Origin: Alloascoidea hylecoeti
Taxonomy: Eukaryota
Assembly: GCA_001600815.1 (NCBI GenBank)
Contig: BCKZ01000001.1
Location: 664,613 to 728,612 of the forward strand
Direction of reading: 5' to 3'
Length of the DNA stretch: 64,000 bases
Shown here: piece after piece, positions 1,015-40,308 of the stretch
Layout: each line of letters begins with the position of its first letter
How positions within the stretch are numbered: position 1 is the stretch's first letter
The notes under the pieces: model-generated
What the model saw: only the letters and a program-made list of their open reading frames with translations
What the model was told of the DNA's origin: nothing
Databases searched by the model: none
Position numbers and translations under genes: made by a program

Positions 1015-4000
1015 TTATGAGTTCAAATGAAATTGCCTATAGAAACTATCCCATTCACTTGTATCATCATCAAACATAAAATTCTCAAATGTTATGAAAG
1101 GAAATGGCTCAGCTTCACAGTTATAATCAAATTGATTCATATTTGATTCGTTTAAATCTGAAAGAGCATCACTATAATTATTGTGTAATTGTGTGTCAAA
1201 TTCCCTATTATTTGGCATGGGTTGGATGATTGAATTAGCTGCAGTTAAAGTTGTAGTCTGTTCCTGTGATTGCTGTTGTGATTGTTGCTGTATCGTAGGT
1301 GAATGTATTTGATTATCAAAATATTCAAATGGATGAAGCTGTTGTTTTGTAGTATTTATATCTTCTAATAGATAAGGTGATGGGGGTTGAAATTTTAGAA
1401 TCTGTGGAGTTTGAAATGATAATGATTCATGATGATCCGATATATTATAAGCTTGAGATAGTTCTGGAGCTTGAAGAGATATTTGTAAAATTTTCCTTGT
1501 AGTTGATTGATCAGTTGTAAGTTTTATTCTTTTTGTTGATCTTTCTTGACTTTGTTCAACAATTGGTTGTGAAGTCTTATTATAACTATCAACTTCAATA
1601 TTTGTTTGTTTGACATTTCCTAATTCAACATTAGTATCAGATATAGTTTCTTGTGATTGTTTTTTATTAGTATGAACACTGATATGAGCACTTTTCACTT
1701 CTGTATGTTTTTGAGTAGAATTTGAAACGTTATTAGCATTAGTGTTATTAATATTTGTATTTCTAAAAAGATGACTATATTGATTTTTAAAATCGGTATA
1801 ATTTGCGTCATAATAAGAAATATTATTTTGTAGAATATAAAAAGGATTTGACATATTATTATCATTTAAATTTTGATTACCATTTGTTTTATGATTATGA
1901 TTATTATTTAGAATTATATTTTTCTTCAAATGTTTTGTTGTTTCACGAATTGTTTCTAATTCATTAATTAATAATCTTTCAACTATTGTTATTATTGGAC
2001 ATGATAATTTCATATTTTCAATTGATTTTGTAATTGTTTTTAAATGTTTAAAACAAATTAAAGTTGTATATTTTATTGTATTTGAATATAATTTTAATTT
2101 ATTAAAATTTTGATTTAAATTTTTATCAATTGTATTGGTTTCTTTACTTTTTGCAATTGAATAATGATATGATCTATTTAAATCCATTGTTAGATGAGTT
2201 AATAAAAGATTTATAGCTGTTGATATTACATTAACCATATGAAATGGAAATATATTAAAACTAAAACGAGGAGAGTTGTTGGTATTAGCATCAGTAGTTG
2301 CAATAGGTGAAAATTTGGTATTGTTTTTATTAAATATTCTTAATAGATCAATAATTATTTTCATTGATTTCCAACAAGTATCAAAAGCATAATCGAATGA
2401 ATTTTTTTCAATGCTTGTTCCATTATTCTTTTTATTTTGTGGTATATTATCGCTATTATTATCATCATCATCATCATCATCATCACCATCATTACATAAT
2501 AGTTGACTTGCGATTGGAGATAATGAAATAGAAGAAGAATTTTTGTTTGATGTAAATTTGAAGTTGTTAACGATATTTTTAAGTCCGGTTAATAAAATCG
2601 GTCTATATAATGTAATAAGTATCGAATGATAAGTCATATGTAAGATTAATACAATCGGTTCAATATTATTGTAATCAGTACCATTATTATCATTAGCATT
2701 TAAATCGGATGATGTTGGTGGAGTTGAAGATGATTCATTGATATTAATCCATTGATTCCAATGAAGATTATAGGGTAGATTAAATAACCATTTTTCTAAT
2801 TCAATATGTATTTCACCAATAGAATTACAAATTAAATGAAAATTTAAATCTGATTTTTGACTATTTTCATTTCCATTTTCATTTTCATTATCATTATAAT
2901 TGTTATAATTAATATTATTTGTATCATTACCAAATACTTTTCTTAACATTTTATCTAAAATTTTAGATAATTCAGCCATATAAACCCAAGAATTAACCAA
3001 ACACATTCTATTTTCGCCTCTTGATAATAATTTAAACATATTTGCTTCATTTGTAGTTAAAGAATCATAAACCGAACTTCTTAATTCCCCTGGGTATGGT
3101 AGTCTAACAGTTATTCTAACATCTGAATCAAAAATATTTAAAAATGATGGTCTACCATAACAAAAGCTCATAAATTTATCAATTATAAAATTTCCCCAAT
3201 AAACTCTTCTTCTTAATTCTCTTTCAATTCTTGATTTTTTAGAATTATCCCAATTATCAGGATCTAAATGTAAACCCATTTCAAAAACTAATCTAAAAGA
3301 TAAACCAGTAAAAGACCATGCTTTTGATACTTCACCAACCATATATTCTCTTAATGATAAAAATAAAATTGATTGAATTAAAGTCAATGAAGGATCATTT
3401 AATAATCTTAATGATTCAAATATCCAATTTTCAGATAATGAATAAAATTTTGGACCTAAATTTCTAATTTTTAAATCATTTGGGAAAAATAAACAACAAT
3501 ATGAACATAAAGCACATAATAAACCAGGAGTATAATAAGGACCATTACCCAATTCAAAATCTCTTAAGAAATATTCTCTATAAATAAATAAAGTATTTGG
3601 GTATTGACAAGTAAATAAGAAAGATATTAAATTTTTAATAATTTCTAAATTTTCATTTATAAAATTATTTATATTAATTGAATTATTATTATTATTATCT
3701 GTCGAATTTGAAATTAAATCTTTTGGAATATTTGCAATTTCATCTAATGATTTATTTGATATGATTGCTTTTGCTTTTGAATTATATAATGTTGGAGAAA
3801 TTTGTAAAAAACTTGTTGGACCAAAGAATTGGATTGATTTTGAATTTGTATTAACTTTGTATAGTTGGAATGGATGAACATATTTTTCATTATTGATGTT
3901 GTCGTTGGTTATGTATGGAGATTGTTCATTATCAGAATCAATGTTAATATTGATATTGAGATTGGGCTTTGAATGTTGCAATTGGGTTTCTTCATTCAAT

Positions 4001-4514
4001 GCGGTTGCAGTTGCAATTGCTTTTTCATATTCATGATTAACGCTATTAACTTTATGATCAACCATATTAAAGCTTGATTGTGGGTTTAAATCAGATTGAA
4101 TTAATGAACCACATGGCACTGATCCGCTAGTCAACTTCTCAATATACGTTTCTAAGAGATATACCTGCCTTTCTAAAACATCAACATAAGATTTTGTTAC
4201 GGGCCTCTTTTTAAAACCATCATTATGGTAGACACAATTAATTTTCTTTTTGACACAATTTTGACAAGGAGATGCTTTGTTGCATTTAATCTATTAAAGT
4301 TATTATGTTAGTTGCTGTCGGTCAAAAAGACATTGTCGTTTTTAGTTGCTTACTTTTCGTCGTCGACAGTATTGACAGCTACATGAAAGATTTAGTGTTA
4401 GTGTTGGAAATGTCATATTGCAAGGATCCTGATGACATACGATATTCTGACAGGATCTCTGACTTTTCTTCCTTTGGCAGTGTCACCCTCAGACTCCCCC
4501 ACGAAGTGACTCAT
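1015..4514 (-). CDS. Zn2Cys6 binuclear-cluster transcription factor with fungal TF middle homology region (Tea1/Cha4/NirA-like), ~1124 aa, 3 exons (4514-4441, 4378-4354, 4290-1015)
   Basis: Splicing introns 4440-4379 (GTATGT..TAG) and 4353-4291 (GTAAGC..ACTAAC..TAG) gives ISCQYCRRRKIKCNKASPCQNCVKKKINCVY, a complete six-Cys cluster, followed by the coiled coil YVDVLERQVYLLETYIEKL. Also FGPTS, GLHLDP and RRRVYWGNFIIDKFMSFCYGRP motifs and an acidic/aromatic C-terminus (FMFDDDTSEWDSF). Confidence 0.93.
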
Positions 4515-4726
4515 TATAAATAAAAGTGGTGATAAAATAGAATAATAATATGAAAGTTTTTTTTTTTAATGTTAGGTGATTAGAAAGAAAAGTATCGGTA
4601 TTAATGGAGATAATATTAATATAATGCCAAATTAATAAAGAATAAATATATTGACGGAGAATATCTCACATACGATCATCTAAATTTGCATTATTTATTT
4701 TATTATAAAAGATAAGACAATTGTAA

Positions 4727-5616
4727 TCAAAGCTGCCCTGCCTGAATTTCTTCATCCGTCACATCCAAAATTAGCATATGTCCGGGCAGGTGCCCCATCA
4801 CACTCCCCTCGATGTCTCCCCCAAGTTGCATCACAGCCAGCTGAGGGGTGACCCCGCACGCCCAAAAAACAGGAATCTGACCCTCAGGAATCCCGGCGAA
4901 CTCGCCAAAGTCAGGCTCCTCCAAATCTCTAATCCCAAGCCTCTTGACAGCCTTAAAACCCCAGTCTATTGGCTCACCATGCACAGCCCTAAAGTCGCGT
5001 GTAACGTTTCTGACCCTTTCGAGATCCTCGGGCTCGAAACTTCTCATGCTGACTACACAAGTACATCCCGTGAAAACTCCTGCGGGATACAACGCTTGAG
5101 ATTCCAAATTAGTAAATATGAAAAGAAACAGCTCAAGATCGGAATATACAACATACTCTGATTCGTTATATACATAGCCACCGCGCAAGATTTCTTCTGA
5201 TGCTGAATCTCAAGGCCAGCCTTAACCAACCCAAATTCAAAGGAATAGGAGCAGCCAAGTAGGAAGCCCACGTGATCTTTTGTAAACTCCTCGGTTATAT
5301 TTTTGGTTCCATGCTTAACAATTTTACCCTTTTCATATGTATTATAGCGGGGGAAGTCCTTAGTGATATCAAACTCACCATCTTTAATTACCGTTGTGTC
5401 CAGCCGATAAGGATTCCCCACCGGTGTTTTCCCCAACAGCGGGCAAGGGACAGGATTACGTAGACAGAGGTCCTCGAAGTCGCGTGCCACCTTGGAGGGC
5501 AGGACTATCAGGTTTGCCTGCGCGTACCCGGGACAGCATCCCGAGGTGTCCGTTGTGTGTTTTTCACTTTTGCAAAGAGCTCTGAACTGGGATGGTGTGG
5601 TACAGGCCATATTCAT
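4727..5616 (-). CDS. DUF1445 / UPF0317 family protein (YcsI-like; D-glutamate cyclase N-terminal-like domain), 275 aa, 2 exons (5616-5157, 5094-4727)
   Basis: Two ORF-track pieces join across intron 5156-5095 (GTATGT..TACTAAT..AAG) to give AMYITNQT/LYPAGVF. Family motifs: TSGCCPGYAQANLIVLP, RNPVPCPLL, GFLLGCSYSFE, VVSMR, HGEPI, PVFWACGVTPQ, HLPGHMLILD. Confidence 0.9.
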
Positions 5617-5906
5617 CTACTGGACTTACTTTATCCATTTATCACTCCATATTTATACACTGGATTGACGTACTTCACAAATCGCGGTGGGTCCAGTCCG
5701 CAATGTATGCGAAAGATAATGCAGTTTACTACCGGCGCCGTTTAGATCACTCACGTGAAATATCAGACTCCAGTTACTTTCTTAGGTATAAATATTCCTG
5801 TCATTGCAAGTGATTTCCCAAGTATTATTAAATATTCAATTGATTAAATCTATTCAATTTATTCAATCGATTTGAAATCGGAACATCCAAATATTACACA
5901 ATTGCA
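5617..5906. promoter_or_regulatory. Bidirectional promoter between the DUF1445 gene and 5-oxoprolinase
   Basis: 290 bp between two divergent ATGs. Contains CGG-N10-CCG (5685-5700), CGGCGCCG (5733-5740), E-box TCACGTGA (5751-5758) and GATAA (5715-5719). Confidence 0.7.
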
Positions 5907-8900
5907 ATGGGAATAAGAATCGCTATCGACGTATGTGATAAATTCGTGATGAGTAATTATGTCCGTACCCCACTATTATTAATGGTATACTAACTAACCA
6001 TTTATAGAGAGGTGGAACCTTCACTGACTGTGTTGGGAATCCAGGAACCGGGAAAATGGAAGATGATGTTATTATTAAGTTGTTATCCGTTGATCCCGCC
6101 AACTATCCCGATGCTCCATTAGAAGGTATTCGAAGGTTGATGCAAATTTTCTTAAAGAAGAAGATTCCAAGAAATGAACCTTTAGATACAACCGATATTG
6201 AATATATTAGAATGGGCACAACCGTCGCCACCAATGCTCTTTTGGAGAGAAAAGGTGAAAGATGTGCGCTTATAACTACAAAGGGATTTAAAGATTGTTT
6301 AATTATAGGTACGTCACGTCATCACATCACATCATCATATTATGAAATCTATATATTAACATCTTTTTATAGGAAATCAAGCAAGACCTAAAATTTTCGA
6401 TTTGGCAATCAGAAAGCCAGATGTATTATATGAAAGTGTTGTGGAAATCTCCCAAAGAGTTACTTTAGAAGATTATACCGAAGATCCAAATCAATGCAAA
6501 TCAAAAGAAAATAATAAAGATACTATAATTGGTTTATCTGGCGAAATAGTTAGAATTTTAGAGACCCCAGATGTTCAAGAAATAGAATCAAAATTACAAA
6601 GCATTTATGATTCTGGTATAAAATCAATTGGTGTTTGTTTGATGCATTCATATACTTTCCCAGATCATGAATTACTTATAGGTAAAATTGCTGAAAAAAT
6701 CGGTTTTACTCATATTTCATTATCATCACAATTATCTCCAATGATTAAATTTGTTCCAAGAGCAAATTCTGCTATTTGTGATTCATATTTAACTCCTGCT
6801 GTTAAAGATTATCTTGATGGATTTGAATCTGGTTTAAATCCAAATTTTCAAAAAACAACAAAAGTTGAATTTATGCAATCTGATGGTGGTTTAGTTGATG
6901 CTTCAAATTTTACTGGTTTAAAAGCTATATTATCTGGTCCTGCTGGTGGTGTAGTTGGTTATGCTCAAACATGTTATAATCCTGAAAATAAAATTCCTTT
7001 AATTGGTTTCGATATGGGTGGTACTTCAACTGATGTATCAAGATATGGACTTGGGAAATATGATCATGTTTTTGAAACAACAACTGCTGGTGTTACGATT
7101 CAATCTCCTCAATTGGATATTAATACCGTTGCTGCTGGTGGTGGTTCATGTCTTTTTTATAAAAATGGTTTATTTGTTGTAGGTCCAGAATCTGCTTCAT
7201 CACATCCTGGTCCAGCATGTTATAGAAAAGGTGGTCCATTAACAATTACTGATGCAAATTTATTCCTTGGTAGATTATTACCTGAATATTTCCCTAAAAT
7301 ATTTGGTGAAAATGAAGATGAAGGATTAGATGAAGATATTACTGCTAAAAAATTCATTCAATTAACAAAAGAAATAAATGAAGAAACTGGTCAATCTATG
7401 ACACCTGATGAAGTAGCATATGGTTTTATTAATGTTGCAAATGAGTCAATGACAAGACCAATTAGAGCTCTTACTGAAGCAAAAGGTTATATTACTTCAA
7501 AACATCGATTAGTTACTTTTGGTGGTGCTGGTGGTCAACATGCTGTTGCTATTGCTGAATCTTTAGATATTAGTACTGTTTTAATACATCGATATTCTTC
7601 TGTTTTATCTGCATATGGTATGGCATTAGCTGATGTTGTTGAAGAAGTTCAAGAACCATCATCATTAATTTTAAATGATTTAAATAAAATTGAAATATTA
7701 AATAAACTTTCAAAATTAAAATCAAAAGCAACTATTAAATTAATTGATCATGGGTTTACAAAAGAATTTATTGAATTTGAAGAATATTTAAATTTAAGAT
7801 ATAAAGGTACAGAATCATCATTAATGGTTTTAAAAGATGATGATAAAAATGATTATAATTTTAAAGAATCTTTTTATGATTTACATCAAAGGGAATTTGG
7901 TTTTACTTTAAAAGATAGAGATATTATTGTTGATGATATTAGAATTAGAGCAATTGGTAAATCTCCACATATTTCTGAAAAAACAGTTGATGAACAATTA
8001 AAAATTGTTAAAAATTCAACAATTAATAATGATTCAATAAATTCAAAAGTTAAATTTATTAAAAATTCTTATTTTAATGGCAAAAGATTAAAAACTCCCG
8101 TTTTTAGATTAGAAGATTTTGACATTGGTAATCAAATTCATGGTCCTGCAATTTTAGCAGATGGTACACAAACAATTGTTGTATCACCTAATTCAATTGC
8201 AACTATTTTAAAAACTCATGTTGTTATTAATGTTGAATCAAAATCAATTAAAACAAATGAATTAGATAATACAATTGATCCAATTTTATTATCTATTTTT
8301 GGTCATAGATTTATGGATATTGCAGAACAAATGGGAATGTCATTACAAAGAACTTCAGTTTCAACAAATGTTAAAGAAAGATTAGATTTTTCGTGTGCTT
8401 TATTTGATACAAAAGGAAATTTGGTTGCAAATGCACCACATTTACCTGTTCATTTAGGTTCAATGTCAACATGTATTAGAACAAATGCTGATATTTGGAA
8501 AAATAAATTAAAACCTGGTGATTCAATAGTTTCAAATCATCCAAGTGCTGGTGGTACTCATTTACCCGATATAACTGTTATTACACCTGCTTTTGATAAT
8601 GATAAAATAATATTTTATGTTGCTTCAAGAGCTCATCACGCTGATATTGGTGGTATATTACCTGGTTCAATGCCTCCAACTTCAAAAGAATTATATGAAG
8701 AAGGTGCACAAATTTATTCTGAATTATTGGTTTCTCAAGGTAAATTTAATGAAGAAAGAATTACTGATTTATTATTGGTACAACCTGCTAAATATCCTAA
8801 ATGTTCTGGTACAAGATGTCTTGCTGATAATCTTAATGATTTAAGAGCACAAATTGCTGCAAATCAAAAAGGTATAAGTTTAATTTCAAGTTTAGTTGAA

Positions 8901-10010
8901 GATTTTGGTTTAAATACAATCATAAAATATATGACTGCTATTCAAGAAAATGCTGCTAATACTGTTCGTCGTTTATTAGCAACAGTAGTATCTCAACATC
9001 AAATGCCATTAGAAGCTAGTGATTATATGGATGATGGTTCTAAAATTCAATTAAAAATTTATATTGATCCCAAAACTAATGAAGCTGTTTTTGATTTTAC
9101 TGGTACTTCACCTCAATGTTATGGTAATATTAATGCACCAGAAGCAGTTACATATTCTGCAATTATTTATTGTTTAAGATGTCTCGTCGATGAAGATATT
9201 CCATTAAATCAAGGATGTTTGAAACCAATTAAAGTGAAAATACCTCCAAATTCTTTACTCTCCCCCGCCGAACAAAGAGCTGTGGTTGGTGGCAATGTAA
9301 TGACTTCTCAACGTGTTACAGATGTTATTCTTAAAGCATTTAAAGCTATGGCTGATTCTCAAGGTTGTTGTAATAACTTAACATTTGGCTACGGTGGTAA
9401 TGATGAAAATGGTAATTACACCCAAGGTTTTGGATATTATGAAACTATTGCAGGTGGTCATGGAGCTGGACCTAATTGGGATGGTGTTCCTGGTGTCCAT
9501 ACCAATATGACAAATACAAGAATAACAGACGCTGAGATTTTTGAAAGACGATATCCTATCATTTTACGACAATTTTCTTTAAGGCCTAATTCTGGTGGAA
9601 AAGGTTTACATAATGGTGGTGATGGTGTCATTAGAGATATTGAATTTAGATTACCTGTTACTTGTTCTATCTTATCAGAAAGACGTGTTATTGCTCCTCA
9701 TGGATTATTTGGAGGTGAAGATGGTAGTTTAGGAGTTAACATTTGGAAGAAACAAATTCAAGATTCAAGTGGTAAAATCACTGGATTTGAAACAATTAGT
9801 ATTGGAGGTAAGAATAGTGTTAATGTTTTGCCAGGTGATCGTGTTATCATTAATACACCTGGTGGAGGTGCCTTTGGATCAATTCCTGATGATCAAAAAG
9901 AAGAAAAATTAGATGAGTTTACGAATTATATTAGCAATGATCAAAAATCACAACATTTCATTGGGGCTGGAAGTGTTTCACAACGGAAAATCATTCAGGA
10001 AACAAACTAA
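5907..10010 (+). CDS. OXP1: ATP-dependent 5-oxoprolinase (hydantoinase A+B fusion), ~1320 aa, 3 exons (5907-5930, 6008-6308, 6373-10010)
   Basis: Introns 5931-6007 (GTATGT..ACTAAC..TAG) and 6309-6372 (GTACGT..TATTAAC..TAG) restore [16 protein letters not shown] and [13 protein letters not shown]. Motifs [76 protein letters not shown]. Confidence 0.97.
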
Positions 10011-10379: not shown

Positions 10380-13300
10380 ATGGTGTCTTCCATACACTCC
10401 ACTAAAGATCCGGATCGACCCAAAGAAAAAGTTCTCGGACATTATGTCTTTGGAGAGCTTATCGGGAAAGGCGCTTTTGCTTCCGTCTATAGGGTAAAGC
10501 ATTCAAAAACAAAAAAATCTCTTGCCGTAAAGCAAATATCCATTTTAAACACCAAAGGAAATACAAAGGATGATGTTAACGCAATAATGATGGAGATTGA
10601 TCTCCTTAAGATCTTAAATCATCCAAATATAGTGAAATATCATGGATTCGTTAAAACTCATGAGGTATTATACATTTTCTTGGAGTATTGCGAAGGGGGA
10701 TCATTACGGGCAATTTATAAACAAAAAGGTCCACTTTCTGAACAAGAAATTATCCCTTATCTTACTCAAGTACTCCAAGGCTTGAAGTACTTACATGATC
10801 AGGGTGTTATTCATCGAGATATTAAAGCTGCAAATATTTTAATTACAAAAGATGGTTTGGCTAAACTTGCCGATTTTGGTGTTGCTACAAAAGTAAACAA
10901 CTTCAGTTCGAAATTAGGTCAATCCACAGTGGTTGGAACTCCATATTGGATGGCCCCGGAAATCGTCTCGTTGGAAGGTGCCGTAACAGCAAGGTAAGTG
11001 TATTTACTGATTTGTTTGTTTTGCTTTATTCTAACCATCTTTTTTGAAAAAGTGATATCTGGAGTCTAGGTTGTACAGTGATAGAGGTACTCACTAGTAA
11101 TCCTCCATATTTTAATCTAAACCCCATGAGTGCTCTCCATAGAATCGTCACCGATGATCATCCACCATTGCCGGATACACTTAGCAGTGTTGCTAAAGAT
11201 TTCTTATTACAGTGTTTTCAAAAACGAGCGAATATCCGAATTAGTGCTACAAGGCTCTTGACCCATCCTTGGATAAGGGGTATGAAGTCAAAACAGCAAA
11301 GAGCTCAATTGAAACCCGTACGGAATAGTTCAATCACTCTTAAAAAACAACGAAAACCTAGTCAAAATGATACCAACAGCAACTCTACTAGTAAAAAGAA
11401 TGTTGTTCTAAACGGAAGTCACATTATGAATTTAAAAAGCAATTTTATAGATGATGATAGCAATAATTGGGACAAAGATTTTGACCTTGATTCAAATAAG
11501 AAAATTCCAATAACCCTTGTGTCTCCAGAATTACGGTTACGGCACAGTTCAGGATCTAAGACGGTTAAATCAACTTCAAGCTCAGGCTCAGGTTCAAGTT
11601 CAAAACGGCATGGCTCAGGTAGTTTAACCACAAGATCTAGATCACCTTCAAAACAAAAACTCCAAACTAAATCAAGATCAAAATCGATCCTTGGACCTGT
11701 AGATTCTAGCTTACAACCTCCCTTTGATACTTCGTTAAGGTCATTTTCATCACTTTCGATTGATTCGATTGATTCTTTAAAATCAAACTCAATTAAGCTT
11801 AAAATTGATACTAAAATACCAAGGAAAACATCAAAAAGTGGTGCTTCTCTTGTATCTGAAGGGTCACCATATAGAGACAATGACACGGAGGATTATTCAG
11901 ACTTATTGGGTGATATAGATGAACTAAGATTGAGCAGACTATCTCCCCATAAAAGATCAAAATCCCCTACTAATACTGCTCACCCATCTTTACCAAAGAA
12001 AAACCCAATACCATTACAACAGCCAGTAGAAAATTATCTTAAGTCACAATTGAGGTCTTTTGTTGAAGAAGACACAAATTCTGATTACTCGAGCGCTTTC
12101 CAAGAAACGAGTAGTATAACAGAAGGGAAATTAGTACAAAGTGGTACCCAAGAGGAAGAGGAAGAAGACCCATTTCTCTCAAGTACTTTTGATGATGAGC
12201 CATTTGCTGAAGAAGATTTTGCAGTTCCTGACGATTCAGAAAGAAATGGTTTACGAAAAGCAATTGCAGAAATGGAAATTTTAGTTTTAGAGTTGAGTTC
12301 TTCGACTACAAACTCCAGATATGATTTAAATGAAGATAAAATTCAATCAATTACAGCTTCAATGCAATATTATTTAGAAAAATTTGGAGAAGTACGGAAA
12401 ACTATTGTTAAAAACCATGGAATTTTACCGATATTAGAAATTTTAGAAATGACCAGTTCTAATCCAGAAATATCCTATAGATTGCTTTGCATTATTAACA
12501 ACATTTTGGAAAACGATATATCATTACAAGAAAACTTTTGTTGTATTGGTGGGTTACCAATAGTGACTAGTTTTACAAATAATAACTTTAGTAATAATGT
12601 TCGTTTACAAGCAGCCAAATTTGTTGATCAAATATGTCAATCAGAATCAAAATTAGCATTACAAATGTTTATTAGTTGTGGTGGACTTTATTTATTAAGT
12701 GATTTCTTAGAAGAAGATTATTCAATTCTGCCAAGTTTCCCGTTAACTGGTATATCTGGTATTTATAAAGCATTCCATTTTAATTCAATATCAAGTTTAA
12801 GCTTAAAAAATGATTTTTGTCGAATTCTATCGCGAAAACATATATTGGAATGGTTAGCGATTACATTATATGAATTAATGAAAGAGGAAAGAGTACTATT
12901 AAAAAGCCAAAACCAAAACTTAAATTTAAAGGATAATTCATCACCTAGTACTACAATTAGTAAAATATTTTCAATTTTTAATTTCTTTTCACAATCAGAG
13001 GCTTTTGTAAAAGAAACAGTTGCAACATATAACTTATTCCGGTCAATATTTCAAATATTTAGTTTTTTCACTCAACAAAATAAAATTATCATGCTTCGTT
13101 TTATTAAATCGTTATCTTGTGTTCCAACCACACTTGATGTTTTACAAGAATCTAATACAATTGAATTTATGTGTGATTTGTTACAAGATATTACAAAAGA
13201 TAAAACAGATGATAATCTTGTTCAATATAAAGAATCAGCAAATAATATTTATCATATTCTATACAACCTATGCAGATTAAATGTTAAAAGACAAGAGGAA

Positions 13301-14368
13301 GCTGTTGAATTTGGAATTGTCAAATATTTACAAATGCTAGAAGGAACAAACTATCCATTTAAAGAATTTGGTTTACCAATATTATGTGATTTAGCACATT
13401 CGGGTAAGAAATGTCGAAATGCTTTATGGGCTAATAATTGTATTGATACATATCTTGCATTATTAAGTGACCCTTATTGGCAAGTGAATAGTCTTGATGC
13501 GATTGTTGTTTGGTTACAAGAAGAACCAGGAAAACTTGAAGAAAAATTGTTAGCATCTAAATCGATCAAAGCATTTATTGATGGTTTTACATTACCAAAT
13601 GCTTCATCATTTGAAAATTTCTTGGATCCTTTTCAAAAGATTTTAAGAATATCATTTAAAATATGTGTCTCTTTAATATGCCCACCGTTAATTAAACAAA
13701 TCGGATTTAAATTGGGTAGTACCTCAAACTCATTTGTTCAATTAAATTTATTACGTATTTTGAAGTTATTAATTGAGGCTCGCAGTATGAGCTCTGATAT
13801 TACAACAAATGCTACGGCTGAACCGTTAATTCGGAAATATGATATTTACGATAATATCCATGGATTGATTACTTCATCTGGTCTATTGGTTAAGGAACTG
13901 GCAAAAGAAATTATTTATATTTCAAGGGATTCAACAACTAAAAATGATTATAGTCGACATAGTAATTCGAGTTCCAGGCCAGGATCTCCAAAAAGAAATA
14001 AGGAGGAAGAAAAGTTGCAATTGCGCGGGCGCAGACACCACAGAAAGGATAGTAATTACAGCGCTAGTAAAGGTCGTGAGAGTCCCGATCATTATCATTC
14101 TAGAGAAGGTAGCGAATCACCAACAAAAGCCCCTAGGATGGGATTTGATTATAACATGTGGGATGTGTCACAAAACCATAGGTCAACAACTTCAATGGCA
14201 CCTCTACCGCGGATTGGCTTAAGAATAAGCCCGTCAAATTCACCAGACAGACGATCACAAGATGGTACTAATATTTTAGAGAGTAGTGGAGGTTATAAAT
14301 TAGAGGCAAAATTAAAGGAGTTGAATTCAAATTTATTTAGAGACAAATCTAAATATGTCAACAATTGA
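10380..14368 (+). CDS. CDC15: Cdc15/Cdc7/SepH-type STE kinase of the mitotic exit network, ~1309 aa, 2 exons (10380-10993, 11053-14368)
   Basis: N-terminal kinase (GKGAFASVY, EIDLLKILNHPNIVKYHGF, HRDIKAANIL, DFGVAT, VVGTPYWMAPE). Intron 10994-11052 (GTAAGT..TTCTAAC..AAG) restores TAS/DIWSLGCTVIE. C-terminal ARM-like region (ENFCCIGGLP, LQMFISCGGL, KEFGLPILCDLAHSG, DPYWQVNSLDAI). Confidence 0.92.
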
Positions 14369-36256: not shown

Positions 36257-39200
36257 TTAAATGCTAGGTAGCCAAATTTTACAACTAACCAACTCTTGTA
36301 CAATTTTATGTGTGGTACCGGATTGTGTAACTAATTCATTTGATTTTTGAAATGTTTTAACATTCACAATGGATCGTTTGAATAACTCTTTTTCCTTCTT
36401 TGGGGGTGCTTTGATTGGTATATTTAAGGTGGGTTTGTTGGCTGCTATGGCCTGTTTACGCGCTTTGTTTGCTTGTTTAGTCTGATTAAATACTTCTTTT
36501 AACATTAAAGTAATAAATTTAAGGCTTTCACCTTGAGCAGTGAAATATTTAACTAATTTGAAAAATACTTTTTGTGGAGCTTGTGCTGGATTAGGAATAG
36601 AATCAAATATTTCTTGTAATTTTTCACTTGATATAAGTAAACCTTTCATTCTTAAAAACATTTCTATTTGCATTTTCATCTTTTCTGATGCAATTTTAGA
36701 TTTATTTGATGAATCTGTTGGTTGAGTTACTCCTATTACAAGTTTTGATTTTGTTTCTGGTGAAATAAAACATTTATTAAAGAATTCTAAGAATGATTCT
36801 TTTGTGATTGATCTTGCCATATGTGTATCAATTTCATCTTCATCAAATGAACTTTTAAATCTTAACGATCTACTACTAATTTGATCCCATAATCTTTGAT
36901 GTTCTTGTTGTGTATTATTTGATTTTGTTTGCTCATCAATTAATGATTTTGCTAACAATTCTTGAAATTCTTCAGATGTTAATTCTTTAATTTTATCATT
37001 GAGAAACTCAAAAAAACCATCAATCTCTTTATCAAGAAATGATGGATCTTTATCACTTAATAAAGTAACATGAATGCCAACGATTTCTCTTAAGAATCGA
37101 CTTCCTCCAAAAACCAAATATCCCAATTGTTTCTCAGTTCTTAATTTCTCTGAAACATAAATATTCAAAATATATGAGGTAATTTTTGTTAATATTCTGG
37201 TTTTATTATCTGCTCTTATACCGGTTTGGAAAAATGAAACTATACATTTATTGATTTCATTCTTATCAATTGGATGAATTATGTATTCATAATAACTTGA
37301 AGGTTGTAATTTTATAGTACTTGGACATCTCCATTTTTGATCTCCTCCTGACATATTATCAGAGAGTAATTTTCTTGTCAATATTTCTTCATAAATAAAG
37401 CAATCCTATATAAACAATAATCATTAGTATTAATATTTGAGAGAAAACTCAACTGTGATATAGACTTACATTTTGTGTTATATCACCATTAATAAACATA
37501 TTAACATAATTAAATTCAAAATTTGAAGACCCAAAACCAATGATATCTTTCAAAGAAACACCTGATAGAAATTAAATGTTAGTTAATTATATAACTTACT
37601 GTGTTGATGGAGATGAAATCAAATATATACTTACTACGTAAAGCTTCTAATCTATCATCGACATCCCACATATTTTCCTCTAATAGATAAAACAAAGCTC
37701 CGCTAGCTAAAGCAACAGGATTTTGAGTTTTAAAACTGTTATAATAAGCAATCTTTTCAGTTAAAACATGAGCAAATACTTTATTTAATAATTGTAATTG
37801 TGATTCATTTTCATTTTCATTGTCAATTAATGAAGATTTTTTAAATTGCATCATTTCATCAAATATAATTTCAAATAATAAGGTAATTTTTTCATTAAAA
37901 CCACCTAATGAGAATTCAATTGTTCCATCACCTTTTATAGAAGGTTTAATTAAATATGAATATCCTAATAAACTTGAATCATATATTTTTGAATTTAATA
38001 AATAATTTATCATTTCACAAAACAATTCACATACTATGAAATGTGTAACTGTAATTTTTTCTTTACCTTGTTTTTCTAAATCGTTTGTAAAACTAGCAGA
38101 ACTTAAGATTTCTAATGTTATATAAGAACGTAATAGTGTATCAAAACTATTTTCTTCTTTATACCATAATTGTAATCTTGAAGAATTAATTAATAGAGCA
38201 GGATCAATCATCAATGGCTTTTTAATATCTGGTGTAACATCTTGTATTTGCGATTTTTCATTAGTATCATTTATAAATGTATGACTTGATGTTGAAATGT
38301 TTAACTGCTCACTTTCTTCATCATTATACACTGAACCTTTATGAGGATTATCGCTATGATTCGAATTAGATAATCTCTTTAAATTTAAAGTTATTTGTGG
38401 CGTTATTAAGCGTTTTCTAATTATTAGAGGGGCTGTTGATATATCATTATTCATATTAATTTCAGGCTTTGCCTTTGTTTTAGTTTTGGTTTTATTTTTA
38501 TTTTCATTTTTATTGTTATTCTGTTTCAATATTTCCCTTGGAATAAATTGATTTGATTTTGGAAAATATAAATTCGGATTTTTTTGGACAATTCTTAAAT
38601 GATGTAAAAAAGTTGAATCTAAATCACCGATTTTATACGTAAAATTATAAAATTTATCAATATTTGAATTGATATAACTGATACTCGGACAAATTGTTCT
38701 AAATAAATTATTCCATTCTTCAGATACCAATATAACAATATTCATATTATTTGGCGATATTTTGTTCATATATTTCCTAAAAAGATTACTTTCAAATAAA
38801 TGAGTTTCTGATTCTAACTCTGAGGTTGAATTAAATGTATAATCATCAGGTTCAAAATCTAATTTGTTACTATAGTTATAACCATCATTAATACTTACAA
38901 AATCTGGAATATGGTGTTTGTCTTTATTTAATTCCTTATAATTGGTTTGTTGAAAGTTCAAATTTGACCAATTATAAACACCTGCACCTTTTAAAATCCA
39001 TTGCTTATCATTGCTAGAATCATTGTTATCCATTAAATTAGAACTTAATTCAGAAGCTTCATTCATCGGTAAATCATCTTTATCCATATAACAAAATCTA
39101 ATCCAATCAATTTCCTCCAATTCTTTTAAAATAGGTAGAATCTCAGTTTCCCAATCCGCATTTACTATCATTTTGTTGTATTCAGAAACAGCGGTTAAAA

Positions 39201-40308
39201 CAGCAGATATATTACGACATCCTTCTCTAGTTACTTTCATTTCAAGGATAACCGCTTTACTAGAATGTGATAAACTCGAAACATAAGTAGATATATGAGT
39301 GATATAGCCTAATTTATTCCGTAGCAAATGATATAAAGAGCCTTCACCTTCATGTCCAATTAAATGGCAATATATTCCATTAAATTCACTTATTAAAAGT
39401 CTATAAATATTTTTAGTACTTAAAAGATTTATTGGGAAAATTAATCTTATTGTAGCAGTTGAATTCTTTAAAATTCTAACTTGAGCACGTTTTGAATTTG
39501 TTTCATCTTTATTCGGTATATTTGTAATCATTATTTTTCTTTTATGTTCAGGTTTAAAGATTGGTTCATTAATTTTTAAAACTTTTGGTATTAAATTTTT
39601 ATTTTCAATATCACCAAATGATTCAACAACAAATCGAGTTAAATTATTTAAAGAATAATTTGACATTACAACCAATTTCATTACGTTTGATGAAAAGTTA
39701 TCATTATAGTATGCTGATAGTAATTTACCTACACTTATTCCCTCTTTATTTGGAATTTCATGTAATGTTTTGGTATTACCAGTTGCGAATTGGTGGAAAG
39801 GATGATTTTCATTTGATAATAATCTTAAACATTGATGTAAAATTTTGGATTCTTTTTTCATATTACCCTCATGTTCGGAATTAACAGCATATACTTCTTT
39901 CTGTTTACAAATTTTTGAAAATAAAGGAGTTTTAAAAAACTCACAAAACATTTTTAAAACATTTAAAAATTGATTATTGGTAACTTGAAAATAAAAATTT
40001 GTATGTTCACCACTTGTATAAGCATTAAGAAAACCAGAATTGGCTGATATGTACTTTGAATAACAATTTGGCTCTGGATATTTCTTAGTTCCAAGAAATA
40101 ACATATGTTCACAAAAATGAGCAAGACCAGGAACTGATTTAGGATCATTGAAAGACCCCGTATTAACACATAATGAAGCAGCTGAAGTTGTTGTATTTGG
40201 ATCTGATATAAGTAAAACTTCTAATTCATTTTTCAAAGTAATGATTCTATATTCCCTTTTATCGTTCAAAGTAGAAACAACTTTTGTTGTTTCTGAAAAT
40301 TGCTGCAT
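36257..40308 (-). CDS. AXL1: M16A insulinase-family metalloprotease, Axl1-like, ~1305 aa, 3 exons (40308-37635, 37561-37470, 37405-36257)
   Basis: DKREYRIITLKNELEVLLISDP, PGLAHFCEHMLFLGTKKYP (HxxEH), EVYAVNSEH, LRTEKQLGYLV. Introns 37634-37562 (GTAAGT..CAG) and 37469-37406 (GTAAGT..TACTAAT..TAG) join the two ORFs in frame. Divergence, insertions and the C-terminal extension favour Axl1 over Ste23 (inference). Confidence 0.75.

What the first reader, a model, noticed from the sequence alone, without database searches (positions are those of the whole stretch)
1015..10010. Candidate eukaryotic D-glutamate / pyroglutamate utilisation cluster: Zn2Cys6 regulator + DUF1445 enzyme + 5-oxoprolinase
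Seen: three adjacent genes, with the DUF1445 gene and OXP1 head-to-head on a 290-bp promoter and a Zn2Cys6 TF starting ~210 bp past the DUF1445 stop. Known: Oxp1-type enzymes hydrolyse 5-oxo-L-proline to L-glutamate with ATP. Mammalian D-glutamate cyclase (DGLUCY) contains a DUF1445 domain and converts D-glutamate to 5-oxo-D-proline. Bacillus ycsI (DUF1445) lies in the operon of the unrelated prokaryotic 5-oxoprolinase PxpABC. Inference: this yeast has independently coupled DUF1445 to a non-homologous oxoprolinase under a dedicated activator, giving an inducible route from D-Glu or D-pyroglutamate to L-Glu as a nitrogen source. I know of no characterised yeast cluster like this; S. cerevisiae OXP1 has no such partner.
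Basis: partly seen in the sequence, partly recalled or inferred. Interest (0 to 1): 0.85.

Follow-up and report, generated by a model that had tools for sequence, protein, structure and literature searches.

The report
Yeast DUF1445–oxoprolinase–regulator gene cluster
A wood-dwelling yeast keeps its pyroglutamate-opening enzyme, a poorly understood enzyme related to animal D-glutamate cyclase and a DNA-binding regulator side by side, and the same pairing recurs in other fungi and in bacteria, which gives a way to find out what the unknown enzyme does.

Summary
Three intact, intron-bearing genes lie at 1015-10010. They are a Zn2Cys6/Fungal_trans regulator (1124 aa), a PF07286 (DUF1445, "D-Glu_cyclase") protein (275 aa after I corrected one splice site), and a canonical OXP1 5-oxoprolinase (1320 aa). 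DUF1445 and OXP1 share a 290-bp divergent promoter. The regulator's ATG lies 212 bp past the DUF1445 stop.

The pairing is not this yeast's own invention:
- By NCBI locus tags the two genes are adjacent in Metschnikowia pulcherrima (5 contig pairs).
- DUF1445 lies near an OXP1-type gene in 3 of 15 fungal-like metagenome loci. One of these also holds a likely orthologue of this regulator.
- 5 bacterial-like loci pair DUF1445 with a fused OXP1-type enzyme, and 37 pair it with PxpABC.
- The genes are unlinked in Ogataea and in several filamentous-fungus loci.
- In S. pombe, published arrays list DUF1445, a 5-oxoprolinase and a transporter in one small co-repressed set.

The link to 5-oxoproline is therefore strong. 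The exact DUF1445 reaction (D-glutamate cyclase, epimerase or other) is unknown, and mouse cyclase activity was never assigned to this domain. I found no paper describing a fungal cluster of this kind.

Unexplained: DUF1445 has GC3 of 0.54, against 0.08-0.32 for every other ORF in the window.

The parts
1015..4290 (-). TF exon 3: end of the Zn2Cys6 domain, coiled-coil linker, Fungal_trans domain and a long Asn-rich tail; stop at 1015
   Evidence: PF04082 E 6.6e-34; model; colinear with the L020 TF, E 1e-60
4354..4378 (-). TF exon 2, a 25-nt mini-exon carrying the first two cysteines of the Zn2Cys6 motif
   Evidence: alignment runs through the junctions to homologues
4441..4514 (-). TF exon 1 with the ATG at 4514. 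Exons 1+2 together are GC-rich (GC 0.475, GC3 0.39)
4515..4726 (.). 212-bp AT-rich spacer (GC 0.20) between the DUF1445 stop and the TF start; presumed DUF1445 terminator and TF promoter
4727..5094 (-). DUF1445 (PF07286) exon 2, including the stop codon
   Evidence: PF07286 E 1.2e-30; corrected 3' splice site
5095..5156 (-). DUF1445 intron, 62 nt: GTATGT ... TACTAAT ... AAG, the AAG being the first AG after the branch point
   Evidence: restores the conserved LxPAG stretch, 59 of 61 conserved columns kept
5157..5616 (-). DUF1445 exon 1 with the ATG at 5616, preceded by an in-frame TAG
5617..5906 (.). 290-bp divergent promoter shared by DUF1445 and OXP1. TATA-like boxes at 5650-5657 (towards DUF1445) and 5787-5794 (towards OXP1) flank a GC-rich core
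5685..5700 (.). CGG-N10-CCG inverted triplets, a candidate Zn2Cys6 dimer site. A second motif, CCGGCGCCG, lies at 5732-5740
   Evidence: the only CGG-N10-CCG in the 64 kb, against 0.55 expected for the whole window. Found post hoc; binding not shown
5907..5930 (+). OXP1 exon 1
   Evidence: N-terminus colinear with six fungal OXP1 proteins
6008..6308 (+). OXP1 exon 2 (Hydant_A_N, first part)
   Evidence: PF05378 E 5.7e-22
6373..10010 (+). OXP1 exon 3 (rest of Hydant_A_N, Hydantoinase_A, Hydant_A_C, Hydantoinase_B), including the stop codon
   Evidence: PF01968 2.1e-101, PF02538 3.1e-205; lies in the canonical budding-yeast OXP1 clade

Best explanation
This is a conserved fungal gene module for 5-oxoproline (pyroglutamate) metabolism.

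**Components**
- The yeast's canonical ATP-dependent 5-oxoprolinase (OXP1) and a DUF1445/PF07286 enzyme are transcribed in opposite directions from one 290-bp promoter.
- A Zn2Cys6 regulator of the subfamily that includes S. pombe SPBC1683.13c (named 'Cha4, amino acid sensing') lies next to them. It probably controls the pair through the CGG-N10-CCG site in the promoter core.

**Proposed mechanism**
- OXP1 opens 5-oxo-L-proline to L-glutamate.
- DUF1445 most likely interconverts a glutamate or 5-oxoproline species that OXP1 cannot use directly into one that it can, or the reverse. The leading candidates are the D-isomers (D-Glu and 5-oxo-D-proline), handled by cyclisation or epimerisation.
- Pyroglutamate and D-glutamate from decaying biomass and bacterial walls could then be used or detoxified.

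**Shown:** gene identities, intactness, architecture, recurrence of the pairing, and the family relationships.
**Inferred:** co-regulation by the TF, the substrate, the D-isomer step and the physiological role.
For: **Architecture and domains:**

**Linkage in fungi**
- DUF1445 and OXP1 carry consecutive NCBI locus tags on 5 M. pulcherrima contig pairs: OXX69_001469/70, OXX59_001288/87, OXX80_000853/52, OXX79_003043/42 and OXX79_006666/67. In strain HF325 they sit on one contig, 9 tags apart.
- Three unnamed DUF1445/OXP1 hit pairs share the same longest-contig length: 95398, 31308 and 42589. This is indirect.
- Fungal-like metagenome loci: L006 and L020 have OXP1-type and DUF1445 genes head to head (spacers of about 0.9 and 0.5 kb). 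L001 has MFS-DUF1445-Zn2Cys6 TF-OXP1-type. All three hold MFS transporter genes.

**The regulator**
- The L020 TF is colinear with the window's TF (E 1e-60).
- A member of the 90% cluster of P0324 is recorded on a 981,897-bp contig, the length of L020's contig. P0324 is the sixth-best relative among 1.84 billion representatives after the window's own entry.

**Bacteria**
- 42 of 65 bacterial-like loci have a 5-oxoprolinase in the flanks held (within 10 kb at most) of DUF1445: 37 PxpABC and 5 fused OXP1-type. Among loci with at least 3 kb on both sides the figure is 19 of 23.
- DUF1445 is thus found beside two unrelated 5-oxoprolinase types, which points to 5-oxoproline as the common factor.
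- Seven loci add DUF4392, a class IV (D-amino-acid type) aminotransferase and alanine racemase, a link to D-amino acids.

**S. pombe**
- SPAC5H10.01 (DUF1445), SPAC11D3.15 (5-oxoprolinase) and transporter SPAC11D3.18c are 3 of 9 genes specifically repressed by copper (PMC1929147 passage; gene product from the PMC5983419 table).

**Sequence and phylogeny**
- The window's protein keeps 59 of 61 columns that are at least 90% conserved.
- It sits in a budding-yeast clade (SH-aLRT 99) inside a fungal clade (100) that is separate from bacteria.
- OXP1 is the canonical orthologue.

**Promoter:** the only CGG-N10-CCG in 64 kb lies in the shared promoter.
Against: - No expression or biochemical data exist for this organism. 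No RNA run holds the stretch, so co-induction is untested.
- Linkage is patchy. It is absent in Ogataea (KL911_002987 against KL911_005280, and KL921_003600 against KL921_000061, on different contigs). It is also absent from the held flanks of 12 of 15 fungal-like loci, including L011, L017 and L034, which have 6-10 kb on each side.
- In the filamentous-fungus loci the partner is a separate OXP1-like clade, not canonical OXP1 (FastTree only). The substrate there could differ.
- 5-oxoprolinases are reported to be specific for the L-isomer (recalled, not checked here). A plain D-glutamate cyclase would therefore make a product that OXP1 cannot open.
- The mouse cyclase activity was not assigned to the DUF1445 domain, and DUF4392 was not found here.
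- The fold gives no mechanistic hint. The only matches are the unannotated structures 2PIF and 3DB9, followed by an NrpR-like protein at Z 9.6.
- The L001 TF is only distantly related to the window's TF (E 3e-7).
- TF linkage in Metschnikowia was not tested.
- The promoter motif was found post hoc.
Confidence: 0.55

Rival explanations
1. This yeast independently recruited DUF1445, acting as a D-glutamate cyclase, next to OXP1 under a dedicated activator, giving an inducible D-Glu or D-pyroglutamate to L-Glu route for use as a nitrogen source.
For: - PF07286 is named after D-glutamate cyclase.
- Mouse DGLUCY contains this domain and makes 5-oxo-D-proline.
- Bacterial operons add a class IV aminotransferase and alanine racemase.
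- The TF is adjacent, and the promoter holds a CGG palindrome.
Against: - The pairing is not independent or unique. It occurs in M. pulcherrima, in L001, L006 and L020, and in 5 bacterial-like loci with an OXP1-type enzyme.
- Cyclase activity was not mapped to DUF1445, and DUF4392 was not found here.
- 5-oxo-D-proline is not a known OXP1 substrate (recalled), and no inversion step is identified.
Confidence: 0.15
2. A housekeeping pairing. DUF1445 works with OXP1 on L-5-oxoproline from the gamma-glutamyl/glutathione cycle, either by producing it from a gamma-glutamyl compound or by repairing a side product. The neighbouring TF is a general amino-acid regulator or is unrelated.
For: - The partner here is the canonical, probably only, OXP1 orthologue.
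- The S. pombe co-repressed set is described as amino-acid metabolism genes.
- A. fumigatus DUF1445 (AFUA_5G01690) falls together with nitrogen-regulated transporters in a gprK mutant.
Against: - Fungal clusters carry MFS transporters and their own TF, which is typical of uptake and catabolism.
- Bacterial loci carry importers (Nramp, TRAP) and D-amino-acid enzymes.
- Ogataea, which has both genes, does not link them.
Confidence: 0.2
3. The adjacency has no functional meaning. It is retained synteny or chance, and DUF1445 may be a recently inserted foreign gene, which would explain its odd base composition.
For: - DUF1445 GC3 is 0.536, against 0.08-0.32 for 23 other ORFs (z about 5.2), and it is rich in G-ending codons.
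- Linkage is absent in Ogataea and many filamentous-fungus loci.
Against: - The pairing recurs across three ascomycete groups and in bacteria, with three different ring-opening enzymes: PxpABC, bacterial fused OXP1-type and the fungal OXP1 clades.
- The protein is a budding-yeast-type DUF1445 with a yeast-type intron, not a bacterial import.
- GC enrichment also extends into the 5' ends of both neighbouring genes.
Confidence: 0.08

Closest known systems
Bacillus subtilis ycsF-ycsG-ycsI-kipI-kipA operon (pxpA, Mn importer, DUF1445, pxpB, pxpC)
   Same: A DUF1445 gene is co-organised with an ATP-dependent 5-oxoprolinase (PMC10448178 passages). The same layout is seen in 37 of 65 bacterial-like loci here.
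   Different: The ring-opening enzyme is the unrelated PxpABC. It is an operon, not a divergent eukaryotic promoter with a Zn2Cys6 regulator. YcsI itself has no demonstrated function. I could not read Niehaus 2017.
Mammalian D-glutamate cyclase DGLUCY (9030617O03Rik / C14orf159)
   Same: It contains a PF07286 (DUF1445) domain and acts on the glutamate/5-oxoproline pair.
   Different: It is a two-domain mitochondrial protein (DUF1445 + DUF4392), and the activity was measured on the whole protein. The yeast protein is DUF1445 alone. The mammalian gene is not described as paired with 5-oxoprolinase.
Region B of wine Saccharomyces cerevisiae (horizontally acquired)
   Same: It is a compact yeast cluster with Zn-cluster TFs, an OXP1-type 5-oxoprolinase and a TNA1-like MFS permease. 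Its genes are reported to be regulated by its own TFs (PMC13447093 passages).
   Different: No DUF1445 gene is listed among its five ORFs. It holds a flocculin gene. Its substrate is likewise unknown. I could not compare its TFs with the window's TF.
Schizosaccharomyces pombe SPAC11D3.14c/.15 (5-oxoprolinases), SPAC11D3.18c (transporter) and SPAC5H10.01 (DUF1445)
   Same: The same gene families occur. Three of these genes fall together in a 9-gene copper-repressed set. DUF1445 and the transporter also fall together in a klf1 mutant.
   Different: That they are physical neighbours at a chromosome end is my recollection from the systematic names, not checked here. No Zn2Cys6 TF is known to control them. 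The window TF's best relative, SPBC1683.13c, lies on another chromosome.
Classical yeast catabolic modules run by Zn2Cys6 activators (Cha4/CHA1, Put3/PUT1-PUT2, the DAL cluster)
   Same: A pathway-specific Zn2Cys6 regulator acts with CGG-triplet sites upstream of nitrogen-catabolic genes. The CGG-N10-CCG spacing is that recalled for Put3.
   Different: Target genes and inducer are unknown here. The binding-site assignment and the Put3 spacing are recalled or inferred, not tested.

Membership tests
PF07286 / UPF0317 (DUF1445, 'D-Glu_cyclase' family) | Match to the family profile over its whole length | tested here: met
   Exon 1 matches profile positions 1-44 (E 6.2e-10) and exon 2 matches positions 54-143 (E 1.2e-30). 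The alignment profile hits the PDB entries 3DB9 and 2PIF at E 1e-79 to 1e-82.
PF07286 / UPF0317 (DUF1445, 'D-Glu_cyclase' family) | Conserved core residues retained | tested here: met
   59 of 61 columns that are at least 90% conserved in 29 relatives are kept. The two differences are P to S and Y to F in the VVSMRPY motif.
D-glutamate cyclase, EC 4.2.1.48 (as in mouse DGLUCY) | Two-domain architecture, DUF1445 + DUF4392 (PF14336) | tested here: not met
   No PF14336 hit in the three genes, in the window ORFs scanned or in the ORFs scanned in 6 fungal-like loci. tblastn with bacterial DUF4392 queries found none in any of the 15 fungal-like loci. The whole genome was not available.
D-glutamate cyclase, EC 4.2.1.48 (as in mouse DGLUCY) | Converts D-glutamate to 5-oxo-D-proline | not testable with these tools
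   Needs an enzyme assay. In the mouse paper the activity was measured on the whole protein.
Eukaryotic OXP1-type 5-oxoprolinase | Fused Hydant_A_N + Hydantoinase_A + Hydantoinase_B architecture of about 1300 aa | tested here: met
   All domains are present. The 1320-aa model is colinear with six fungal OXP1 proteins and 62-67% identical to many.
Eukaryotic OXP1-type 5-oxoprolinase | Orthology with canonical fungal OXP1 rather than a paralogue | tested here: met
   It falls in the budding-yeast canonical clade (support 100, FastTree, 49 rows). The OXP1-like genes of L001, L006 and L020 form a separate clade. A second copy elsewhere in the genome cannot be excluded.
Eukaryotic OXP1-type 5-oxoprolinase | ATP-dependent hydrolysis of 5-oxo-L-proline | not testable with these tools
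   Inferred from orthology only.
Zn2Cys6 fungal transcription factor | Six-cysteine binuclear cluster plus Fungal_trans middle domain | tested here: met
   CX2CX6CX5CX2CX6C at residues 26-52 of the spliced model, aligned to the Zn clusters of homologues. PF04082 E 6.6e-34.
Zn2Cys6 fungal transcription factor | Dedicated regulator of the neighbouring pair | tested here: inconclusive
   For: a likely orthologue lies in the L020 cluster, and a unique CGG-N10-CCG sits in the promoter. Against or open: the L001 TF is a different family member, Metschnikowia was not tested, and there are no binding or expression data.
Conserved fungal metabolic gene cluster | Linkage of the same gene families recurs in distant genomes | tested here: met
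   M. pulcherrima, 5 contig pairs. L001, L006 and L020. Not universal: Ogataea is unlinked, and 12 of 15 fungal-like loci have no OXP1-type gene in the flanks held.
Conserved fungal metabolic gene cluster | Co-regulation of the members | not testable with these tools
   No RNA run holds this DNA. The only indirect support comes from S. pombe array data.

The most novel reading that the evidence does not exclude
DUF1445 is the missing stereochemical link of 5-oxoproline metabolism. It would be a cofactor-independent enzyme, possibly using its two invariant cysteines (the GCS and WxCG motifs), that makes 5-oxo-L-proline available from D-glutamate or 5-oxo-D-proline. Together with an ATP-driven 5-oxoprolinase it would form an irreversible D-to-L glutamate conversion route. 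That route would be conserved from bacteria to fungi and, in yeasts, placed under a pyroglutamate- or D-Glu-sensing Zn2Cys6 regulator.
Probability: 0.2. Interest if true: 0.8.

Novelty: new variant of a known kind. Interest (0 to 1): 0.6.

Why it matters
DUF1445/UPF0317 is a widespread family found in bacteria, fungi and vertebrates. Two crystal structures exist, but no reaction has been assigned to the domain itself.

DUF1445 sits beside a 5-oxoprolinase of one type or another in bacteria and in three ascomycete groups. That narrows its role to 5-oxoproline/glutamate chemistry.

A three-gene yeast module with a shared promoter and its own regulator is a simple genetic system for testing that role. 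The tests are deletions, growth on D/L-pyroglutamate and D-Glu, and reporter assays.

It would also define a fungal pyroglutamate (and possibly D-glutamate) utilisation cluster. It could explain the unexplained OXP1/TF/permease 'Region B' of wine yeasts. It bears on how fungi in decaying wood use nitrogen derived from bacterial cell walls.

Tried and rejected
- **Own genome:** not held, so paralogues, DUF4392 elsewhere in the genome and a linked permease to the left of the window could not be checked.
- **TF word search:** the word-indexed search was swamped by Asn-rich low-complexity words and gave only 4 hits. I replaced it with the exhaustive HMMER job on residues 1-530 of exon 3.
- **TF linkage in Metschnikowia:** not tested, because I had no way to pick out its orthologue among unnamed representatives.
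- **RNA evidence:** no RNA holder is listed for this DNA. Only contigs could be laid, so splicing and expression remain unverified by reads.
- **First DUF1445 splice model:** the model with the 3' site at 5080 was rejected, because it deleted a conserved LxPAG stretch.
- **Bacterial HGT as the cause of the GC-rich DUF1445:** rejected. The protein lies in a budding-yeast clade (99) within fungi (100), and the gene has a yeast-type intron.
- **Translational selection as the cause:** unlikely, because G-ending codons rise from 0.05 to 0.31.
- **Fold searches:** Foldseek against the PDB and VIA wide gave only UPF0317 structures, an NrpR-like protein (Z 9.6) and generic ferredoxin-like folds around Z 5. 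No listed match was a racemase, lactamase or cyclase, which shows neither presence nor absence of such a mechanism.
- **Papers:**
  - Niehaus 2017 is not held.
  - Searches for DUF1445 (5 papers), for UPF0317 / SPAC5H10.01 / PF07286 (7), for 'D-glutamate cyclase' (42 hits, 25 listed), for ycsI + 5-oxoprolinase (1), for OXP1 / pyroglutamate / nitrogen source / yeast (51 hits, 20 listed), for D-pyroglutamate terms (112 hits, 30 listed) and for the A. fumigatus neighbour tags (1) turned up no description of a fungal DUF1445-OXP1 cluster.
  - Two pxp papers do not mention DUF1445 or the D-isomer.
  - PMC8886410 was irrelevant.
- **Record search:** The genome search on the L020 record was not possible.
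- **Earlier scan notes:** the look-up by sequence found nothing.
- **CGG motifs in other promoters:** a scan of the L001, L006 and L020 promoters gave no convincing shared site in those GC-richer sequences.

Full report
**What is in the sequence**

The window is AT-rich (30% GC) yeast-type eukaryotic DNA with short introns. Pfam places the following domains:
- A Fungal_trans domain (PF04082, E 6.6e-34) on the long - strand ORF 1015-4134.
- The D-Glu_cyclase family PF07286, formerly DUF1445, on two - strand ORFs at 4727-5047 (E 1.2e-30) and 5053-5616 (E 6.2e-10).
- Hydant_A_N, Hydantoinase_A (2.1e-101), Hydant_A_C and Hydantoinase_B (3.1e-205) on + strand ORFs between 6056 and 10010.

I read the splice signals from the sequence and checked the joined frames.

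The regulator runs 4514-4441 / 4378-4354 / 4290-1015 and gives 1124 aa. Its six-cysteine CX2CX6CX5CX2CX6C motif is split over three exons. The spliced N-terminus aligns without a break through both junctions to the zinc clusters of its best relatives, at 32-49% identity over 63-107 residues for 8 of the 9 tested; the ninth matches only the linker behind the cluster.

OXP1 runs 5907-5930 / 6008-6308 / 6373-10010 and gives 1320 aa. It is colinear with six fungal OXP1 proteins at the junctions.

For DUF1445, my first model (3' site at 5080) lost a conserved LxPAG stretch. Taking the first AG after the TACTAAT branch point (intron 5156-5095) restores it. The result is 275 aa that keep 59 of the 61 columns at least 90% conserved in 29 relatives.

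The head-to-head spacer is 5617-5906, which is 290 bp. The regulator's ATG lies 212 bp beyond the DUF1445 stop.

Contigs of other public runs cover 2860-7114 and 2498-5158 without a difference. Those runs may include the window's own source.

**Is the linkage more than chance?**

No eukaryotic genome collection with gene order was available, and the window's own genome is not held. I used three indirect routes.

*Locus tags.* The best named DUF1445 relative is from Metschnikowia pulcherrima, at 57% identity over exon 1. Cluster members show DUF1445 and OXP1 with consecutive NCBI tags on five contig pairs: OXX69_001469/70, OXX59_001288/87, OXX80_000853/52, OXX79_003043/42 and OXX79_006666/67. 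In strain HF325 they lie nine tags apart on one contig. By the same test Ogataea is unlinked. KL911_002987 and KL911_005280, and KL921_003600 and KL921_000061, lie on contigs of different size.

This suggests the same contigs but does not prove adjacency.

*Metagenome scan.* A scan with a 29-protein alignment returned 80 loci. I classed 15 as fungal-like, based on best matches to fungal-clade proteins and longer or split matches, and 65 as bacterial-like.
- Three of the 15 fungal-like loci hold an OXP1-type gene near DUF1445.
- L006 and L020 have the same divergent arrangement, with spacers of about 0.9 and 0.5 kb.
- L001 reads MFS, DUF1445, Zn2Cys6 TF, OXP1-type.
- All three hold MFS transporter genes.
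- The other 12 show no OXP1-type gene in the flanks held. Most flanks are short, but L011, L017 and L034 have 6-10 kb on both sides.

**The regulator**

An exhaustive HMMER search of 1.84 billion representatives found 26 proteins at E of 1e-30 or lower. The best apart from the window's own entry is S. pombe SPBC1683.13c, named 'transcription factor, amino acid sensing, Cha4' (E 7.9e-74).

The sixth-best after the window's own entry, P0324, heads a 90% cluster with a member recorded on a 981,897-bp contig, the length of L020's contig. Directly compared, the L020 TF is colinear with the window's TF from the linker behind the zinc cluster through the Fungal_trans domain (E 1e-60, 31% over 434 residues).

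A likely orthologue of this regulator thus sits about 3.4 kb from DUF1445 in a distant ascomycete cluster. The TF in L001 is a different family member (E 3e-7).

The shared promoter has TATA-like boxes facing each gene (5650-5657 and 5787-5794). Between them is a GC-rich core that holds the only CGG-N10-CCG in the 64 kb, at 5685-5700 (0.55 expected for the whole window), and a CCGGCGCCG at 5732-5740. These are plausible zinc-cluster sites, but I found them post hoc and they are untested.

**Bacterial context**

Of the 65 bacterial-like loci, 37 have PxpA, PxpB or PxpC in the flanks held, and 5 (L013, L014, L030, L053, L063) have a fused, intron-free OXP1-type gene 0.1-1.3 kb away. Among loci with at least 3 kb on both sides, the total is 19 of 23.

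Seven loci continue with DUF4392 (PF14336), a class IV aminotransferase and alanine racemase. In L061, PxpC and DUF4392 are fused.

Earlier notes of this scan describe similar bacterial operons. They agree with what I saw, but none concerns fungi.

DUF1445 is thus tied to two unrelated 5-oxoprolinases across domains of life. This is the strongest argument that its substrate or product is 5-oxoproline or glutamate.

**Trees**

In a 123-row DUF1445 tree (IQ-TREE quick), fungal proteins form one clade (SH-aLRT 100) apart from bacterial ones. The window's protein lies in an 18-row budding-yeast clade (99) with Ogataea, Metschnikowia and Zygosaccharomyces, on a long branch.

In a 49-row OXP1 tree (FastTree only), the window's OXP1 is canonical and branches at the base of the budding-yeast group (100). 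The OXP1-like genes next to DUF1445 in L001, L006 and L020 form their own clade (100) outside canonical ascomycete OXP1. The bacterial ones lie outside all fungi.

Yeasts therefore pair DUF1445 with the housekeeping enzyme, and filamentous fungi pair it with a paralogous one.

**Literature**

- Ariyoshi 2017 (passages read): the mouse cyclase has DUF1445 and DUF4392, and the assay used the whole protein, so the reaction is not assigned to DUF1445.
- PMC10448178 (passages) gives the B. subtilis operon with ycsI among the pxp genes.
- Rustici 2007 (passage) lists SPAC5H10.01 (DUF1445), SPAC11D3.15 and SPAC11D3.18c among nine genes specifically repressed by high copper. SPAC11D3.15 and .14c are given as 5-oxoprolinases in tables of PMC5983419 and PMC12610034.
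- The klf1 paper reports SPAC5H10.01 and SPAC11D3.18c falling together.
- PMC13447093 (passages) describes Region B of wine yeasts as TF, OXP1-type enzyme, TNA1-like permease, flocculin and TF, with no DUF1445.
- None of my searches found a paper describing a fungal DUF1445-OXP1 cluster. Supplements were not consulted.

**Mechanism**

An AlphaFold model of the M. pulcherrima protein (pLDDT 93) matches only the unannotated structures 2PIF and 3DB9. After those come an NrpR-like protein (Z 9.6) and generic ferredoxin-like folds. The fold does not settle the chemistry.

I commit to the following. The module handles 5-oxoproline. OXP1 opens the L-lactam. DUF1445 supplies or removes a related species, most likely on the D-isomer side. 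The TF switches the pair on.

A plain cyclase would give 5-oxo-D-proline, which 5-oxoprolinase is not known to open (recalled). An epimerising or otherwise L-lactam-producing activity would fit the genomic pattern better. That is the bolder reading, which I put at about 0.2.

**Unexplained composition**

DUF1445 has GC3 of 0.536 (G3 0.31, C3 0.23). OXP1 has 0.10 and the TF 0.14. The 23 other ORFs of at least 150 aa range from 0.08 to 0.32, giving z of about 5.2.

The enrichment spills into TF exons 1-2 (GC3 0.39) and the first 300 nt of OXP1 (0.36). The 212-bp spacer is only 20% GC.

A bacterial origin is excluded by the tree and the intron. Transfer or introgression from a GC-richer yeast carrying the same cluster, or biased gene conversion at two flanking promoters, remain open.

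**Verdict**

This is the eukaryotic, regulator-equipped form of a cross-domain DUF1445/5-oxoprolinase association. It recurs in fungi but is not universal, and I found no published description of it. I class it as a new variant of a known kind, with interest 0.6.

Noticed in passing
window 4000-6500 (peak at 4727-5616): A GC-rich island in an AT-rich region. DUF1445 has GC3 of 0.536 with many G-ending codons, against 0.08-0.32 for the 23 other ORFs. The enrichment decays into the 5' ends of both neighbouring genes, while the 212-bp spacer stays at 20% GC. The origin is unresolved: transfer from another yeast, or biased gene conversion.
   Followed up: partly
window 10380-14368 (+): A protein kinase gene, apparently with one intron. 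The kinase domain is split between the ORFs 10380-10997 and 11126-14368, and a long Ser-rich tail follows. It sits directly downstream of OXP1 and appears unrelated to the cluster.
   Followed up: no
window 2856-2920 (inside the TF gene): A short AT-rich coding repeat in the Asn-rich tract. It attracts contigs from many other places in the assemblies (depth spike, many loose ends and false joints). The same low-complexity words swamped the word-indexed protein search.
   Followed up: no
L012:7761-9868 and L012:6510-7754: In one bacterial-like locus DUF1445 lies beside LarC-like (Ni_insertion) and LarB-like (AIRC) genes and a glutamate dehydrogenase. PxpABC lies 6.7 kb downstream. LarB and LarC make the cofactor of a racemase family, a possible lead on stereochemistry.
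   Followed up: no
L061:12275-14044; also L046, L047, L050, L062, L072, L079: A seven-gene bacterial operon type: DUF1445, PxpA, PxpB, PxpC, DUF4392, class IV aminotransferase, alanine racemase. In L061, PxpC and DUF4392 are fused into one ORF.
   Followed up: partly
L001, L006, L020: The OXP1-like genes next to DUF1445 in filamentous-fungus-like contigs form a clade separate from canonical fungal OXP1 (FastTree). They are accompanied by MFS transporters and may be a distinct lactamase subfamily.
   Followed up: partly
window 36257-40308 (-): An M16 (insulinase-type) peptidase appears as two adjacent ORFs, 37579-40308 and 36257-37354. The split is probably an intron or a frame break. Not examined.
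   Followed up: no
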